The position numbers were made by a program, and so were the translations under genes. From the NCBI GenBank assembly GCA_009835985.1, contig VXWI01000115.1:11145-75144 (forward strand): a stretch of 64,000 nucleotides of DNA, given 5' to 3'. This DNA is from Acidobacteriota bacterium (GTDB lineage Bacteria > Acidobacteriota > Vicinamibacteria > Marinacidobacterales > Marinacidobacteraceae). The notes below the pieces were generated by a model. It had not been told where the DNA came from and ran no database searches. It saw nothing but the letters and a program-made list of their open reading frames with translations. Shown in pieces: positions 568-51,128 of the stretch. The stretch's first letter is position 1, and every line of letters starts with the position of its first letter.

Positions 568-900
568 ATGATTCACCCCGAACTCCTCGAGATCCTCTGT
601 TGTCCGGAGACCCGGCAGCCGGTGCGCGAGGCCCCCGAGGCGCTCGTGGAGTCCGTGAACCGGGCCATCCGTGACGGCAGTCTCGCGATGCCCGCCAGCG
701 GCGAGCCCGCCGCGGTCCTCGACGGCGGGCTGGTCCGGGAGGACGGGAAGTTCCTCTATCCGGTGCGCAACGGAATCCCGATCATGCTGATCGACGAGCG
801 CATCGCGATGCCGGCCCCGGAGGGCGAAGACTCAACCGAAGATGTTGAAGAGGATGGCGACTCCGGACATCATCCAGTGGAGACTGGCGCCGGGGCCTGA
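568..900 (+). CDS. Trm112/YcaR-family small protein (DUF343) with an acidic C-terminal tail.
   Basis: MIHPELLEILCCPETRQP...FLYPVRNGIPIMLIDERIA matches the Trm112p-like motif (LLEILvCP...YPIrdGIPvML). Confidence 0.65.
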   Translation: MIHPELLEILCCPETRQPVREAPEALVESVNRAIRDGSLAMPASGEPAAVLDGGLVREDGKFLYPVRNGIPIMLIDERIAMPAPEGEDSTEDVEEDGDSGHHPVETGAGA

Positions 901-1287: not shown

Positions 1288-1491
1288 GGCTAACAGCCGG
1301 TGGCGGAACTGGCGTGAGCACCGGCCCCCCACCGGGAGAACTGGTGCACGCTGGGCCTCGCTGACAAGGCGCGCGAGGGAGGAATAGCAGCGCTCTTTCG
1401 ACCGAAGCGCAACGATGAGCGAGCCGAAGGCGAGCGGTTCAGCGGGGATTCAGCGGGTGTCGAATGCCGCGGTAGTTTCGTCACAGGCTGT

Positions 1492-1821
1492 CTAGTGAAC
1501 CGTGGAAGAGTCGGTTCCCTGGGGGCGGGGAACGTTGTCGCCCTCCGACTGCTCCACGGCGCTCAACTGGGTCTCGAGCATCTTGATGAGGGCGGGGACG
1601 ATCCGGAAGGGAAGCGTGATCCGGGTCTTGGGATCGGCATGCACGACGGGTTCGCCGGATGCATCGGTGTGCGAGAGGTCCTCCGGCTGGATGCCGGTGA
1701 GACTGCAGAACGTGATCGTCAGATCGAAGGGCGAGTGCGTCGCTTCGCAGAAGTTCGCGTACACCTCCGGACAGGAGACGTCCCGCCGGGCCTTGATCTT
1801 GAACGTTTTCTTCATGTCCAT
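1492..1821 (-). CDS. Small conserved hypothetical protein (DUF3467-like).
   Basis: 109-aa ORF; the YANFCEATHSPFDLTITF motif resembles the DUF3467 family. Codon usage is consistent with the rest of the window. Confidence 0.5.
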   Translation of the reverse strand: MDMKKTFKIKARRDVSCPEVYANFCEATHSPFDLTITFCSLTGIQPEDLSHTDASGEPVVHADPKTRITLPFRIVPALIKMLETQLSAVEQSEGDNVPRPQGTDSSTVH

Positions 1822-2678: not shown

Positions 2679-2823
2679 GGGGTCCTTCAGACCGGTGGCG
2701 GGGTCCCTGCCCCGCCACCAGTGAAAGGCGCGCAACGGCTTGGAACCCCCACCGGGAGAACCGTCATGTTCGGTCCACCTGCACACCCCGCCGGGCATGA
2801 AACGGCGGGAACGGCTTGAGCTC

Positions 2824-3043
2824 GGAGCGCCGGCCTCCGGCCGGCATCGCGGCCGCAGGCCGCGAAACGGACGCCGCAGCCGACTCCGATGGCGTGATCC
2901 CTACCGGGAGCGGCTGCCCGCCGCTCGAAACGAGCCGGACCTGGGCCCCACGTTCAGGGGGGAGGAGCGCCATCAGCGCGGGTTTCGCGCTCCCGCGCGG
3001 CCCCCACCGGGAGAACTGGCCGCCGGCCGGAGGCCGGCGCTCC
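2824..3043 (+). mobile_element. MITE-like repeat copy 1, 220 bp, with perfect 22-bp terminal inverted repeats (ggagcgccggcctccggccggc ... gccggccggaggccggcgctcc).
   Basis: About 90% identical over its full length to the reverse complement of 15174-15392. Its 5' half is shared with 28707-28860 and 61238-61265. Intergenic, no coding capacity. Confidence 0.75.
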
Positions 3044-3138
3044 GAGGCGACGCCACCACAGCTGCTGGCCAACTCCGCACGACTGCACTTTCACAGCAAC
3101 TGGCGCGCAGCGCGTGCCGGCTGAAGCCGGCGTTCCAA

Positions 3139-3172
3139 GGAGTCTGAGCCGCATTTCTGCGGCTCAGACTCC
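3139..3172. terminator. Perfect 14-bp stem / 6-nt loop hairpin (ggagtctgagccgc-atttct-gcggctcagactcc); candidate bidirectional terminator.
   Basis: Directly abuts the stop of the minus-strand ORF 3172..3435. No U-tract follows, which is common in high-GC genomes. Confidence 0.4.
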
Positions 3173-3435
3173 TACGCCCGCGCTTCTTCCTCTTCTTCCT
3201 CGGCTTCGAGCAGGCTCCGCTCGTCCTCGGTCAGCACGTCCGCCATCTTCCAGACGGGCTCCTGCGGACCCGGGACGATCCCCTCGATGTCCCGGTCGCC
3301 TTCCCTGGGCACGGCCATCGCCCGCTCTTTCTCGATGGCGCGTTCGCGGCGCCGCAATTCCTTGGCCCGCTGGCGCGCCACGCGCTCCTTTTCCTTCCTG
3401 CGCTTGAGGAACGTCTGTCGGGAACGGTTGGCCAT
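3172..3435 (-). CDS. Hypothetical small protein, basic N-terminus (KRRKEKERVARQRAKELRRRER) and acidic C-terminus (EAEEEEEEARA).
   Basis: 87-aa ORF, no recognisable family. Sits between the MITE/hairpin and the BNR-protein gene. Confidence 0.35.
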   Translation of the reverse strand: MANRSRQTFLKRRKEKERVARQRAKELRRRERAIEKERAMAVPREGDRDIEGIVPGPQEPVWKMADVLTEDERSLLEAEEEEEEARA

Positions 3436-8321: not shown

Positions 8322-8543
8322 GTTTTCTCCTTTCGCGACCGTCGCCGTGACTGCCGCTTCCTCAGTTCCCTCCGCAGTGAAACAGGAGGAGTCCGCCGAG
8401 GGCGAGCGCCGCCAGGACGATGGGCGCAAGAGCCACTACGAAGTGCCAGCGCTTCGGGTTCGGTCCGTTCGTGCCCGCCGGCCGGTTCATCGCGCCACTC
8501 TAACGGCCCCGGTGGGGTTCCCGGCCCGCTGACCGCGAGACAA

Positions 8544-15119: not shown

Positions 15120-15173
15120 ACGGCCGCGCTCGCTGGTCGGCGGGTCGCCCAGCCGCCGTGGTGGCGCCGCCTC

Positions 15174-15392
15174 GGAGCGCCGGCCTCCGGCCGGCGGCCA
15201 GTTCTCCCGGTGGGGGCCGCGCGCGAGCGCGAAACCCGCGCTGATGGCGCTCCTCCCCCTGAAGGTGGGCCCCACGTTCGGCTCGTTTCGGGCGGCACGC
15301 AGCCTTTCCCGGTTGGGATCACGCCATGGGAATCGGCTGCGGCGTGCGTTTCGCGGCCTGCGGCCGCGATGCCGGCCGGAGGCCGGCGCTCC
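15174..15392 (-). mobile_element. MITE-like repeat copy 2 (219 bp), inverted relative to copy 1; same perfect 22-bp terminal inverted repeats.
   Basis: Its sequence equals the reverse complement of 2824-3043 with about 90% identity, e.g. ...ggccagttctcccggtggggg... is the reverse complement of cccccaccgggagaactggcc. Lies between the lipoprotein gene and tal. A 10-bp-stem hairpin (cgtttccgcc-N11-ggcggaaacg) follows at 15403-15435. Confidence 0.75.
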
Positions 15393-15513
15393 GAGCTCCG
15401 GCCGTTTCCGCCATTGTCGTGACGGGCGGAAACGCCGCGTCAGTCGTGCCGCCAACCGGTAGAATCGCGCCGGGGCCGGGCCGAATTCCGGATTGACGAG
15501 GTGCCGGGCGCGC

Positions 15514-49032: not shown

Positions 49033-50037
49033 ATGCTGGTCATCATGGGGACGAACCCCACCGAAGAACAATGCGGGCGGGTGGAGACCGCGATCCGTGA
49101 CATGGGTTTCACTCCGCTCCGGGTGCCGGGCGCCGACCGGACCGCGATCTGCGTCACCGGGAACCGGGGGCCGGTGGACCCCTCGTTCCTGATCCGGCTC
49201 CCCGGGGTCGCCCGCTGCATTCCGGTCACCAAGCCGTTCAAGCTGGTCAGCCGCGAGGTCCATCCGGCGGAGACGGTCGTCGAGATCGGCGGGGTGCCGG
49301 TGGGGGGGCCGGAACCCATCGTGATCGCCGGGCCGGGCAGCGTCGAGACCGAGGCCAGGACCCTGGACATCGCCCGTGCGGTGAAGAAGGCGGGCGCTCA
49401 CGCTTTCCGCGCGCGCCTGTGGGCGGAGCGGGTCGGTCCGTATCACTTCGGCGGGGTCGGCGACGAAGGGCTGCACACCCTCGACCGCGTGCGCGAGGAG
49501 ACCGGGCTCCCGGTGATCACGGAGGTCATCGATCCGCGGTCGGCGGAGCAGGTCGCGGAACGCGTCGACTGCGTCCAGATCGCGGCCCGCCACATGGAGA
49601 ACGAAGCGCTTCTGGACGTGGCGTGCCGCCTCGGGAAGCCGGTGATCGTGGAACGCGCGCCGTCGGCGAGCGTCGAGGAGTGGCTGATGGCGGCGGAGTC
49701 CCTGCTGGCCCGGGAGAAGCGGGACGTGATCCTGTGCGAACGGGGAATCCGCACCGGCGGCCAAAGGCGAACTCTGCTTGACCTGCACGTCGTGCCGGTG
49801 GTGCGGCGCATGACCCACCTGCCCGTCCTGGTGGACCCGTCGCGGGCCGTCGAGGAACGGGACCGCGTCCGGCCGCTGGCCCGCGCCGCCCTGGGCGCCG
49901 GCGCTTCGGGCCTGCTGCTCGAGGTACACACACACCCCGACACCGCCTATACCGACCCGATGCAGACGGTGGACATTCCGACCTTCGAGGGCATCCAGCG
50001 CGACCTCGTCAAGATCGGCGAGTTCGAGGCGCTATAA
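49033..50037 (+). CDS. aroF: 3-deoxy-D-arabino-heptulosonate 7-phosphate synthase (type I-beta, Thermotoga-like, with N-terminal regulatory domain).
   Basis: N-terminal ferredoxin-like domain followed by a KDO8P/DAHP synthase barrel (IAGPCSVETEA-like IAGPGSVETEA, RAGAHAFRARLW, PVITEVIDP, LLEVHTHPD). Confidence 0.85.
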   Translation: MLVIMGTNPTEEQCGRVETAIRDMGFTPLRVPGADRTAICVTGNRGPVDPSFLIRLPGVARCIPVTKPFKLVSREVHPAETVVEIGGVPVGGPEPIVIAGPGSVETEARTLDIARAVKKAGAHAFRARLWAERVGPYHFGGVGDEGLHTLDRVREETGLPVITEVIDPRSAEQVAERVDCVQIAARHMENEALLDVACRLGKPVIVERAPSASVEEWLMAAESLLAREKRDVILCERGIRTGGQRRTLLDLHVVPVVRRMTHLPVLVDPSRAVEERDRVRPLARAALGAGASGLLLEVHTHPDTAYTDPMQTVDIPTFEGIQRDLVKIGEFEAL

Positions 50038-50038
50038 A

Positions 50039-50216
50039 CGGCCTGTGGTGGAACTCACGCGGCATTCGAACGGCGATGCATCCCGGCTGAACGTGCCGCT
50101 TCGCGCCCCTCATCGTTGCGTTGCGGTCGGAATACACTCGGTATTCCTCCCTTACGCGCCTTGTCAGCCGGGCGCCTCACCGTTCTCGGTGCTCACGCCA
50201 GTTCCACCACAGGCCG
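50039..50216 (+). ncRNA. Candidate structured RNA or palindromic element: a 17-bp perfect long-range inverted repeat enclosing about 144 nt with internal hairpins.
   Basis: 5' arm cggcctgtggtggaact (50039-50055) pairs perfectly with 3' arm agttccaccacaggccg (50200-50216). An internal 7-bp hairpin ggaatac-actcg-gtattcc lies at about 50139-50157. Begins 2 nt after the aroF stop and ends 25 nt before the next ATG. Single copy in the window. Confidence 0.3.
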
Positions 50217-50240
50217 TTCAGGCGTGATTCGCCCGTCCCC

Positions 50241-51128
50241 ATGACCGAGCCGTCTCCGCCGCCACCCGAAGCGGGCGACGTTTCGTTCGCGCGGACCCTG
50301 CTCCAGTTCTTCGTGATCCCCATGGTGGTGGTGGTCCTCGGGGTGGGGATCTTCCTGGGGTTCGCGTGGCTCGTCTCCGACGACACGACCGCCGAGGAAC
50401 AGCTCCAGCGGATCCGTTCCGGGGGACACCGGGAAGCGCGGCAGGCGGCGTTCGAACTCGCGAACCGCATCCAGCACGGCGATCCCGCGGAGTTCCGGGC
50501 CCTGGGCCCCGATCTGGTGCGGGCGTTTGAAGAAGCGGCGCCGCCGACGGATCCGTGGGTGCGCCAATACCTCGCCCTGGCCCTCGGAACCCTTTCCGAA
50601 GCGGCGGCGGTTCCGGCGCTCGCCGTGGCCCTTTCCGATCCGGACGAGACGGTGCGGGTCTATGCCGCCTGGGCGCTTGGCTCCATCGGGGGCGGCACCG
50701 CGGTTTCCGCGCTCGGCGAAGCCAGCCGGGCCGAGGACGCCGGACTCCGCACCATGGCGGTCTACGGACTCGGGGCCATCGGCGATCCGGCGGGCGCCGA
50801 GGCGCTCAGAAGAGCGGTCGACGATCCCGTGCTGGACGTTTCCGTGAACGCGGTGGTGGCGCTCGCCCGAATCGGCGATGCGGCGGCCGCCGAACGGCTC
50901 CTCGGCATGATGGAGCCGGGCTACTGGGCGAACGTGCCGGGCATGCTGGACGGCGAGCGGACGCTCGCCCGGCTGAGCGCGGTGCAGGCGGCGGGCGTGC
51001 TCGAGACCCCGGTGGTCAGGGCCCGGCTCGAGGAGGTGGCGGCGAACGACCCGGATCTCAAGGTCCGGGAGGCCGCGCTCTCGGCCCTCGCGGGTCGGGG
51101 GAGGACGAGGCAGCCGGCCCCTCCCTGA
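50241..51128 (+). CDS. HEAT/PBS-lyase-repeat protein with N-terminal transmembrane segment.
   Basis: N-terminal TM (LLQFFVIPMVVVVLGVGIFLGFAWLV), then repeated HEAT-like units (VRQYLALALGTL, DETVRVYAAWALGSIG, LRTMAVYGLGAIGDPAGAEALRRAVDD, VSVNAVVALARIGD). Confidence 0.65.
   Translation: MTEPSPPPPEAGDVSFARTLLQFFVIPMVVVVLGVGIFLGFAWLVSDDTTAEEQLQRIRSGGHREARQAAFELANRIQHGDPAEFRALGPDLVRAFEEAAPPTDPWVRQYLALALGTLSEAAAVPALAVALSDPDETVRVYAAWALGSIGGGTAVSALGEASRAEDAGLRTMAVYGLGAIGDPAGAEALRRAVDDPVLDVSVNAVVALARIGDAAAAERLLGMMEPGYWANVPGMLDGERTLARLSAVQAAGVLETPVVRARLEEVAANDPDLKVREAALSALAGRGRTRQPAPP

What the first reader, a model, noticed from the sequence alone, without database searches (positions are those of the whole stretch)
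50039..50216. 178-nt intergenic element closed by a perfect 17-bp long-range stem; possible structured ncRNA (6S-like) or novel small palindromic element
cggcctgtggtggaact at 50039-50055 pairs perfectly with agttccaccacaggccg at 50200-50216. The enclosed about 144 nt contains further hairpins, including ggaatac-actcg-gtattcc. The element fills the aroF-to-HEAT-gene spacer almost exactly and has no ORF. A long closing helix around an internally structured region recalls 6S RNA-like regulators, but it could also be a distinct single-copy MITE.
Basis: seen in the sequence. Interest (0 to 1): 0.5.

Follow-up and report, generated by a model that had tools for sequence, protein, structure and literature searches.

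The report
Hairpin-shaped miniature transposon, not an RNA gene
The 182-base hairpin between aroF and the HEAT-repeat gene is one copy of a small non-coding jumping-DNA element (a MITE) that is scattered through marine and sponge-associated Acidobacteriota genomes, so it is an ordinary kind of element from a family that seems to be undescribed.

Summary
The inverted arms are 19 bp, not 17 (50037-50055 / 50200-50218), and the whole spacer folds into one long hairpin. The 6S-like and single-copy readings do not hold.

A second copy, 72% identical, lies at 1292-1492 in the window. A conserved 19-mer found 51 loci, about 45 of them in Vicinamibacteria / Ca. Marinacidobacterium genomes, with 10 loci from one chromosome.

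Copies are flanked by TA, and tandem copies share a single TA. Two filled-versus-empty comparisons show one TA becoming two. Three relatives have an aroF-HEAT spacer of only 19-31 nt with no element.

The outer 16-17 nt of the arms match the ends of 1.46-1.51-kb insertion sequences. Two of these encode an intact DUF772 + DDE_Tnp_1 transposase (IS5/IS1182-like), and all three are TA-flanked. No Rfam family, promoter, terminator or conserved ORF was found.

Verdict: a new MITE family of a known kind.

One point is unexplained. The hairpin covaries strongly (26 of 64 pairs). It is strand-specific (246 G·U against 14 A·C). Yet the better-folding strand is usually antisense to the neighbouring genes (13:2).

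The parts
50037..50218 (-). MITE copy 1 (subfamily A, 182 nt counting the perfect 19-bp arms). The core RCAGCC...GGCTGY equivalent is 50038-50217. The better-folding ('displayed') strand is the window minus strand.
   Evidence: Inverted repeat; folds; nhmmer with the family profile gives E = 1.4e-52; aligned with 40 other copies.
50037..50055 (.). Terminal inverted repeat, the arm next to the aroF stop codon. The outer 16-17 nt match the ends of IS5/IS1182-like insertion sequences.
50200..50218 (.). Terminal inverted repeat, the arm next to the HEAT-repeat gene.
50129..50147 (-). Apical hairpin P4 (GGAAUAC-loop-GUAUUCC). On the minus strand it carries the nearly invariant AGGGAGGAAUACC motif.
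50093..50109 (-). Second apical hairpin P5, whose stem sequence varies between copies with compensatory changes.
   Evidence: helix 8: 4 of 5 pairs have changes on both sides.
50035..50037 (+). The aroF stop codon TAA, directly abutting and overlapping the element's end. In this family, TA plus the element's first purine gives TAA or TAG.
1292..1492 (+). MITE copy 2 (subfamily B, 201 nt, with a 20-nt inserted module at 1325-1344). It lies between two minus-strand genes and abuts the stop codon of the DUF3467 gene (1492-1821).
   Evidence: (E = 3.3e-48).
8493..8510 (-). Empty target site (single TA at 8501-8502). The orthologous place in a related genome (L021:2226-2408) carries a family copy flanked by TA on both sides.
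829..853 (+). Empty site at a stop-codon region. The orthologous place in OZ244986.1 (L037:850-1032) carries a copy. The flanks have diverged, so the junction is only approximate.

Best explanation
The element is one copy of a non-autonomous DNA transposon (a MITE) of about 181-183 bp. It is dispersed in marine and sponge-associated Acidobacteriota (Vicinamibacteria / Ca. Marinacidobacterium).

Shown here:
- The family is multi-copy.
- Copies are bounded by 16-19-bp terminal inverted repeats, RCAGCCTGTGGTGRAAC.
- Insertions sit at a TA that ends up on both sides.
- Copies are present or absent at orthologous sites.
- Copies insert next to and into one another.
- The same termini with TA flanks bound 1.46-1.51-kb insertion sequences, two of which encode an intact DUF772 + DDE_Tnp_1 transposase (IS5/IS1182-like).

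Inferred:
- Such a transposase, supplied in trans, binds the two ends and cuts and pastes the element into TA sites.
- The element begins with a purine, so insertion into the TA of a TAA or TAG stop codon rebuilds a stop codon. In a 69% G+C genome, stop codons are among the few harmless TA sites. This would explain why copies sit exactly at gene ends and fill spacers within operons.
- At this locus the element was inserted between aroF and the HEAT-repeat gene and is probably co-transcribed with them as a long RNA hairpin. No function specific to this locus is needed to explain its presence.
For: - Second copy in the window.
- The 19-mer GGAACTGGCGTGAGCACCG hits 51 loci, about 45 of them in Acidobacteriota MAGs, including 10 loci from the one chromosome OZ244986.1. 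From these, 53 distinct copies were extracted and nhmmer found 84 hits.
- TA flanks are the rule. Tandem copies share one TA, and nested copies sit at the GCGCG-TA-AGGGAGG site of another copy.
- Filled against empty sites: L021 against window 8493-8510, and L057 against L042. In both, one TA in the empty site becomes TA on each side of the element.
- At this locus, relatives with AroF 88%, 86% and 83% identical have spacers of 31, 19 and 24 nt with no element. A relative at 81% identity has a family copy in the same spacer.
Of the 80 loci held and analysed, 29 short elements of 78-181 nt were extracted, and 28 of them were flanked TA/TA.
- Full-length insertion sequences L093:358-1863, L077:43-1556 and L107:25-1488 have the same 16-17-nt ends and TA flanks. 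L093 and L107 encode intact transposases of 477 and 468 aa; the L077 copy is split between two overlapping frames. The L093 protein matches DUF772 (E = 2.8e-15) and DDE_Tnp_1 (E = 2.8e-6). Its best NCBIfam match is IS1182.
- No Rfam hit, and no promoter or terminator.
Against: - The cognate transposase was not shown to be present in the host lineage. The top 120 homologues of the L107 transposase lie mostly on contigs of about 1.5 kb, and none has the contig length of a known host genome.
- The transposase scores fall below NCBIfam's cut-offs for both IS1182 and IS5, so the exact IS family is open.
- The TA flanks of the window copy are degenerate (TAA|...|TC).
- The whole-length hairpin covaries and is strand-specific. 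A plain double-stranded cut-and-paste model does not predict this. Other MITE families with the same ends are not full-length hairpins.
Confidence: 0.9

Rival explanations
1. It is a MITE family that is also selected at the single-strand level, as RNA or ssDNA. Two versions are possible: the hairpin acts in cis on operon mRNAs (processing, stability or decoupling of neighbouring genes, as reported for ERIC), or source copies need the fold. This adds to the MITE explanation rather than replacing it.
For: - 26 of 64 pairs show compensatory double changes.
- 97.3% of cells are paired, against 88.1% in shuffles (0 of 500 shuffles reach it) and 35-42% when partners are slid.
- 246 G·U cells against 14 A·C cells, and all 41 copies fold better on one strand, by about 21 kcal/mol on average.
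- Unpaired columns are slightly more conserved than paired ones (entropy 0.318 against 0.423).
- Orientation relative to co-directional flanking genes is biased 13:2 (p = 0.007).
- A different 160-nt palindromic family with the same ends shows the same polarity.
Against: - The better-folding strand is mostly antisense to the neighbouring genes, so operon mRNAs usually carry the weaker fold.
- No promoter was found that could drive the better-folding strand.
- Copies are absent from orthologous sites in relatives, so no individual copy is required.
- Concerted evolution of the two arms, through mismatch repair in extruded hairpins, could give covariation without any function.
- The two subfamilies account for much of the double-change count, so the number of independent events is smaller than the number of cells.
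Confidence: 0.22
2. It is a stand-alone structured small-RNA gene, 6S-like or another regulator, lying between aroF and the HEAT-repeat gene.
For: A long closing helix and a significant fold, plus covariation within the family.
Against: - No match to 6S or to any other of the 4227 Rfam models at E <= 10.
- No promoter or terminator.
- It is multi-copy and mobile, with TA duplications.
- It is absent from this spacer in three relatives.
- The fold is a rod with a two-hairpin tip, not a rod with a large central bubble.
Confidence: 0.02
3. It is a REPIN-like element moved as single-stranded DNA by a tyrosine (HUH/RAYT or IS200/IS605-type) transposase. On this view, the TA on the right belongs to the element and the TA on the left is the target.
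For: The hairpin is strand-specific and carries compensatory changes, as described for REPINs (PMC3116915). A single duplicated dinucleotide cannot formally be told apart from a target plus a cleavage site.
Against: - The ends are identical to those of insertion sequences that carry a DDE transposase.
- The termini are symmetrical.
- Non-hairpin MITEs with the same ends and TA flanks exist.
- No Y1/RAYT gene was seen.
- The orientation is opposite to what lagging-strand-template insertion of the folding strand would give (this rests on my own knowledge of IS608).
Confidence: 0.04
4. It is a MITE mobilised by an IS630/Tc1-mariner transposase, the family classically linked to TA duplications (RUP is the example in PMC2229807).
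For: Strict TA flanks.
Against: The only autonomous elements found with these ends encode DUF772 + DDE_Tnp_1 transposases, not IS630-type ones. No IS630-like partner was seen in the DNA examined.
Confidence: 0.04

Closest known systems
ERIC / IRU (enterobacterial repetitive intergenic consensus)
   Same: A small non-coding intergenic repeat with terminal inverted repeats, TA at the termini and a target-site duplication. It folds end-to-end into a long stem-loop and lies in transcribed spacers. Its effects on mRNA are reported to depend on orientation (review PMC2229807).
   Different: A different sequence, host phylum and length (182 against 127 bp). The contiguous terminal repeat is much longer (19 bp against 7 bp). 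This element is G+C-rich (63%). Here an autonomous IS partner can be named, and no expression data exist.
Correia / NEMIS elements of Neisseria, and RUP of Streptococcus pneumoniae
   Same: Bacterial MITEs of 100-160 bp with terminal repeats and TA duplication, many dispersed copies, and sites that are filled or empty between strains. RUP is linked to an IS through similarity of its ends (PMC2229807).
   Different: RUP is linked to IS630-Spn1, whereas here the partner is IS5/IS1182-like. No sequence similarity. No IHF-site or promoter motifs were tested or found here.
REPINs (REP doublets forming hairpins)
   Same: Extragenic hairpin-forming mobile DNA whose stem is kept by compensatory changes; tandem clusters occur (PMC3116915).
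   Different: REPINs are tied to RAYT tyrosine transposases. This family has a TA duplication and the ends of a DDE-type IS.
IS5 / IS1182-superfamily insertion sequences (DUF772 + DDE_Tnp_1 transposases)
   Same: The same 16-17-nt termini, TA|RCAGCCTGTGGTGRAA, and TA flanks. L107 also shares the subterminal GTGAGCAC.
   Different: The window element has no transposase gene, and its interior is unrelated to the IS interior. The IS copies come from other metagenomes, not demonstrably from the host lineage.
6S RNA (Rfam RF00013)
   Same: Similar length (about 180 nt), with a long closing helix.
   Different: No covariance-model match, no central bubble, multi-copy and mobile, and not conserved at the locus.

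Membership tests
Bacterial MITE (non-autonomous DNA transposon) | Small (under about 300 bp) with no conserved coding capacity | tested here: met
   181-201 nt. The short ORFs differ in frame and length between copies.
Bacterial MITE (non-autonomous DNA transposon) | Terminal inverted repeats | tested here: met
   A perfect 19 bp in the window copy. The family consensus is RCAGCCTGTGGTGRAAC at both ends.
Bacterial MITE (non-autonomous DNA transposon) | Target-site duplication shown by filled against empty sites | tested here: met
   TA: L021 against window 8493-8510, and L057 against L042. 28 of 29 metagenome elements are flanked TA/TA. The window copy's own flanks are degenerate.
Bacterial MITE (non-autonomous DNA transposon) | Many dispersed copies within a genome and presence/absence between relatives | tested here: met
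   Two copies in the 64-kb window. Ten loci from OZ244986.1 and eight from OY821641.1 contain the exact 19-mer. The aroF-HEAT spacer is empty in L058, L059 and L061.
Bacterial MITE (non-autonomous DNA transposon) | Ends shared with an autonomous IS that encodes a transposase | tested here: met
   L093, L077 and L107: 1.46-1.51 kb with the same ends. L093 and L107 encode intact transposases of 477 and 468 aa. They were found in other metagenomes, not in the host genomes.
Bacterial MITE (non-autonomous DNA transposon) | Mobilisation by that transposase | not testable with these tools
   This needs a transposition assay.
IS1182 or IS5 family (partner IS) | Transposase reaches the curated family cut-off | tested here: inconclusive
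   NCBIfam IS1182 scores 161 bits against a cut-off of 270, and IS5_4 scores 92.5 against 140. Pfam DUF772 and DDE_Tnp_1 are above their cut-offs.
IS630 / Tc1-mariner-derived MITE | Ends match an IS630-family element | tested here: not met
   The elements with these ends encode DUF772 + DDE_Tnp_1 transposases. Only the TA duplication fits.
6S RNA | Match to the Rfam covariance model RF00013 | tested here: not met
   No hit on the element at E <= 10 in a 1.3-kb search.
6S RNA | A gene conserved among relatives, with its own promoter and terminator | tested here: not met
   Multi-copy. Absent from the locus in three relatives. No promoter or terminator.
6S RNA | A rod with a large central bubble that mimics an open promoter | tested here: not met
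   The consensus fold is a long stem with small internal loops, tipped by two hairpins.
REPIN / RAYT system | Association with a RAYT (Y1) transposase gene | not tested
   Whole host genomes could not be scanned. No such gene was noticed in the loci.
REPIN / RAYT system | Hairpin kept by compensatory changes | tested here: met
   This is a shared property, not sufficient on its own for membership.

The most novel reading that the evidence does not exclude
This palindromic MITE family is not just selfish DNA. On this reading, its end-to-end hairpin is maintained by selection on one particular strand, as RNA or single-stranded DNA. The supporting observations are conserved loop motifs (CUGACAAGG, AGGGAGGAAUACC, CGCAACGAUGAG), covarying stems and a strong orientation bias within operons. 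That would make it a mobile structured-RNA module that shapes expression of the operons it lands in, or an element whose propagation needs a single-stranded folded intermediate even though it has the ends of a DDE-type IS.
Probability: 0.15. Interest if true: 0.55.

Novelty: new member of a known kind. Interest (0 to 1): 0.3.

Why it matters
For annotation: this spacer and the one at 1292-1492 should be labelled as mobile repeats, not as candidate sRNA genes. The same holds for probably on the order of a hundred sites per genome in this lineage, a rough extrapolation from the copy density in the DNA examined.

For biology: the family is a clean example of a MITE whose ends rebuild stop codons. 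That explains why copies sit precisely at gene ends in a G+C-rich genome. The family is also tied to an IS group that is very abundant in metagenomes: the 8,000 best candidates all scored at E <= 1e-30.

The strand-specific covariation, combined with the antisense orientation bias, is a small but real puzzle about how palindromic MITEs evolve. Metatranscriptomes from sponge or marine samples could address it.

Tried and rejected
- **Rfam.** All 4227 models were run at E <= 10 over 49500-50800. Nothing fell on the element.
- **Promoters and terminators.** Sigma-70 and intrinsic-terminator scans found none. Reading the consensus by eye gave no convincing -35/-10 pair on either strand.
- **Coding potential.** The SD-like GGGAGGA plus GUG/AUG opens ORFs of different frame and length in different copies, so it was rejected as a gene.
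- **Replication-strand explanation for the orientation bias.** The local GC skew of the 8-kb loci was uninformative, 29 against 24.
- **Autonomous partner in the 51 genome loci.** No pairs of ends 1-3 kb apart enclosed a transposase.
- **The L014/L032/L041/L047 unit.** The element's left arm is joined to about 2.2 kb carrying an HU-like gene and a 476-aa ORF with no Pfam match. It is not a recognisable transposase and was not pursued.
- **Viral contigs.** Neither the apical motif nor the 20-nt module occurs there.
- **Transposase in the host lineage.** A homologue search returned only the 120 closest proteins, mostly from contigs of about 1.5 kb, so it could not say.
- **IS630 as the mobilising family.** Assumed at first because of the TA duplication, then dropped once the DUF772/DDE insertion sequences with identical ends were found.
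- **Literature.** No paper on 'Marinacidobacterium', or on MITEs in sponge Acidobacteria, describes this family.

Full report
**1. The observation.** The reported arms are real and slightly longer than stated. AACGGCCTGTGGTGGAACT (50037-50055) is perfectly complementary to 50200-50218, giving 19 bp with 144 nt between them. In 100 dinucleotide-preserving shuffles of the window, the 19-mer never matched even with 3 mismatches. The inner hairpin ggaatac/gtattcc is at 50129-50147. The whole stretch folds into one long imperfect hairpin: -104.4 kcal/mol on the + strand (z = -7.8) and -119.8 kcal/mol on the - strand (z = -10.2). It fills the spacer between a DAHP synthase gene (49033-50037, Pfam DAHP_synth_1) and a HEAT-repeat gene (ATG at 50241). 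These sit in a trpDCFBA-aroF-HEAT-Rieske/cytochrome b-cox cluster.

**2. It is not single-copy.** A search for the arm with mismatches, followed by blastn and nhmmer, found a second copy at 1292-1492 in the opposite orientation. It is 72% identical and 201 nt long. This copy also fills the spacer between two co-directional genes and abuts the stop codon of the upstream one.

A 19-mer shared by both copies (GGAACTGGCGTGAGCACCG) was searched in one genome per species. It hit 51 loci. About 45 are in Acidobacteriota MAGs (Vicinamibacteria, Ca. Marinacidobacterium, sponge-derived bins), and 10 come from the single chromosome OZ244986.1. The handful of other hits lack the rest of the element and look like chance. 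From these loci I extracted 53 distinct copies, and the family profile gives 84 hits. The modal length is 183 nt when one flanking base is counted on each side.

**3. It is mobile and duplicates TA.**
- Most copies read TA|RCAGCC...GGCTGY|TA.
- Tandem copies share one TA (L026, L039, L048, L052).
- Several copies are inserted into another copy at GCGCG-TA-AGGGAGG (L015, L034, L042, L043, L051).
- I joined the two flanks of each copy and searched for uninterrupted matches. This gave two clean empty sites. L021 (filled, TA on both sides) corresponds to window 8493-8510 (a single TA at 8501-8502). L057:5615-5788 corresponds to an empty site in L042.
- A third pair, L037 against window 829-853, has diverged but lies at a stop codon.
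- Because the element starts with a purine, TA plus R rebuilds TAA or TAG when the target is the TA of a stop codon. This is inference, but it explains why copies abut stop codons in a 69% G+C genome.

**4. This locus.** Near-identical strains all carry the element. Relatives whose AroF is 88%, 86% and 83% identical keep the same gene order but have spacers of only 31, 19 and 24 nt with no element. A relative at 81% identity has a family copy in the same spacer and the same orientation. So the element is an insertion. The aroF-HEAT operon does not need it.

**5. The autonomous partner.**
- I scanned JGI metagenomes for the terminal repeat while forbidding a base that is invariant in the MITE interior (TARCAGCCKGTGGTGRAACNNNNNNH). 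Eighty were held and analysed.
- They include several unrelated short families of 78, 88, about 120, 130 and 160 nt with the same ends. Of 29 such elements, 28 are flanked TA/TA.
- They also include three elements of 1.46-1.51 kb with the same 16-17-nt ends and TA flanks: L093:358-1863, L077:43-1556 and L107:25-1488.
- L093 and L107 encode intact transposases of 477 and 468 aa. The L077 copy is split between two overlapping frames.
- The L093 protein matches Pfam DUF772 and DDE_Tnp_1. Its best NCBIfam model is IS1182 (161 bits), then IS5_4 (92.5 bits), and both are below the curated cut-offs.
- L107 also shares the subterminal GTGAGCAC with the MITE.
- This transposase group is very abundant: all 8,000 scored candidates had E <= 1e-30, and the 120 best hits lie mostly on contigs of about 1.5 kb.
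- I could not show that the host lineage itself encodes one.
- My first assumption was IS630, because of the TA duplication. I dropped it.

**6. The RNA-gene reading.** No Rfam family matches the element at E <= 10. No promoter or terminator was found, and there is no conserved ORF. The 6S-like reading therefore fails every test I could apply.

**7. What remains odd.**
- An alignment of 41 copies (A3) gives a consensus fold of 64 pairs: a long stem tipped by two hairpins. Twenty-six pairs show compensatory double changes.
- 97.3% of cells are paired, against 88.1% in column shuffles (0 of 500 reach it) and 35-42% when partners are slid. The covariation score is 0.292 against 0.137.
- Much of this reflects two subfamilies whose inner stems differ block-wise on both arms, so the number of independent events is smaller than the number of cells.
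- The fold is strand-specific. On the strand that is the window's minus strand at 50 kb there are 246 G·U cells and 14 A·C cells. All 41 copies fold better on that strand (mean -113.6 against -92.5 kcal/mol).
- Unpaired columns are slightly more conserved than paired ones.
- Yet at independent sites with confidently called co-directional neighbours, that strand is antisense to the genes 13 times and sense twice (p = 0.007). Local GC skew could not separate a replication cause from a transcription cause.
- A different 160-nt palindromic family with the same ends shows the same polarity. The 120- and 130-nt families are not full-length hairpins, so the hairpin is not required by the transposase.
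- Three explanations remain possible, and none was tested: (a) selection against the near-perfect dsRNA, or against the SD-like GGGAGGA plus GUG, when it appears in the sense orientation inside operons; (b) a single-stranded stage in source copies; (c) biased mismatch repair in extruded hairpins, which could also produce covariation without function. REPINs offer a precedent for compensatory changes in mobile hairpins (PMC3116915). ERIC offers one for orientation-dependent mRNA effects of a TA-flanked MITE (PMC2229807).

**8. Verdict.** This is a copy of a previously undescribed MITE family: a new member of a known kind. It has IS5/IS1182-like ends and a TA duplication, and it was inserted at the aroF stop codon. 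Confidence is 0.9. It is ordinary as a class. The stop-codon-rebuilding ends and the strand-specific structural conservation give it modest extra interest.

Noticed in passing
window 1325-1344, 2745-2764, 3000-3019, 15198-15217; also L017:4727-4977, L057:1064-1539, L052:4501-4770, L008, L024, L027, L039, L049, L055, L060: A tiny module of about 20 nt, GCCCCCACCGGGAGAACTGG, occurs 4 times in the window (0 expected). It is found inserted at several different positions and in both orientations inside MITE copies, including four in one element. It appears to replace an A/T-rich di- or trinucleotide. It behaves like an extremely small mobile insert. It is absent from viral contigs.
   Followed up: partly
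window 2801-3066 and 15151-15415: A second repeat family. The two copies are 96% identical and in opposite orientation, each with perfect 25-bp inverted repeats, CTCGGAGCGCCGGCCTCCGGCCGGC (2821-2845/3022-3046 and 15171-15195/15371-15395). Each contains the 20-nt module. The similarity runs at least 20 nt beyond the inverted repeats, so the true unit is longer.
   Followed up: partly
L035:4824-5096, L036:2257-2553, L038:332-604, L046:6144-6433: Longer variants (273-297 nt) of the MITE carry an extra insert of about 90 nt (…CTTCCGGAGCGGGGCG…TAGCTCGGG…) within the GTTCG^AATGCC segment of the right arm. This is another nested module.
   Followed up: no
L014, L032, L041, L047 (MAG jk18x22bins.33): The MITE's left arm, up to about nt 35, is joined to a repeated unit of about 2.2 kb. 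That unit encodes an HU/IHF-like protein (Pfam Bac_DNA_binding) and a 476-aa ORF with no Pfam match. Three of the four copies lie on contigs of 2.5-2.9 kb. It may be a larger mobile or plasmid-like element that targets or captured the MITE.
   Followed up: partly
L093:336-357 and 1864-1885: The full-length IS in L093 is flanked by sequences that are inverted repeats of each other (tttttatgacccagtagta). The IS may therefore sit inside another palindromic element.
   Followed up: no
window 3138-3173: A perfect 16-bp hairpin with a 4-nt loop (AGGAGTCTGAGCCGCA / TGCGGCTCAGACTCCT), just downstream of the second-family repeat.
   Followed up: no
L060:2506-2715: A relative with AroF 81% identical has a family copy in the same aroF-HEAT spacer and the same orientation as the window, while closer relatives lack it. 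This means either independent insertion at the stop-codon TA or loss in the intermediate lineages. Both this copy and the window copy carry one extra purine after the TA (TAG-GCAGCC, TAA-ACGGCC).
   Followed up: partly
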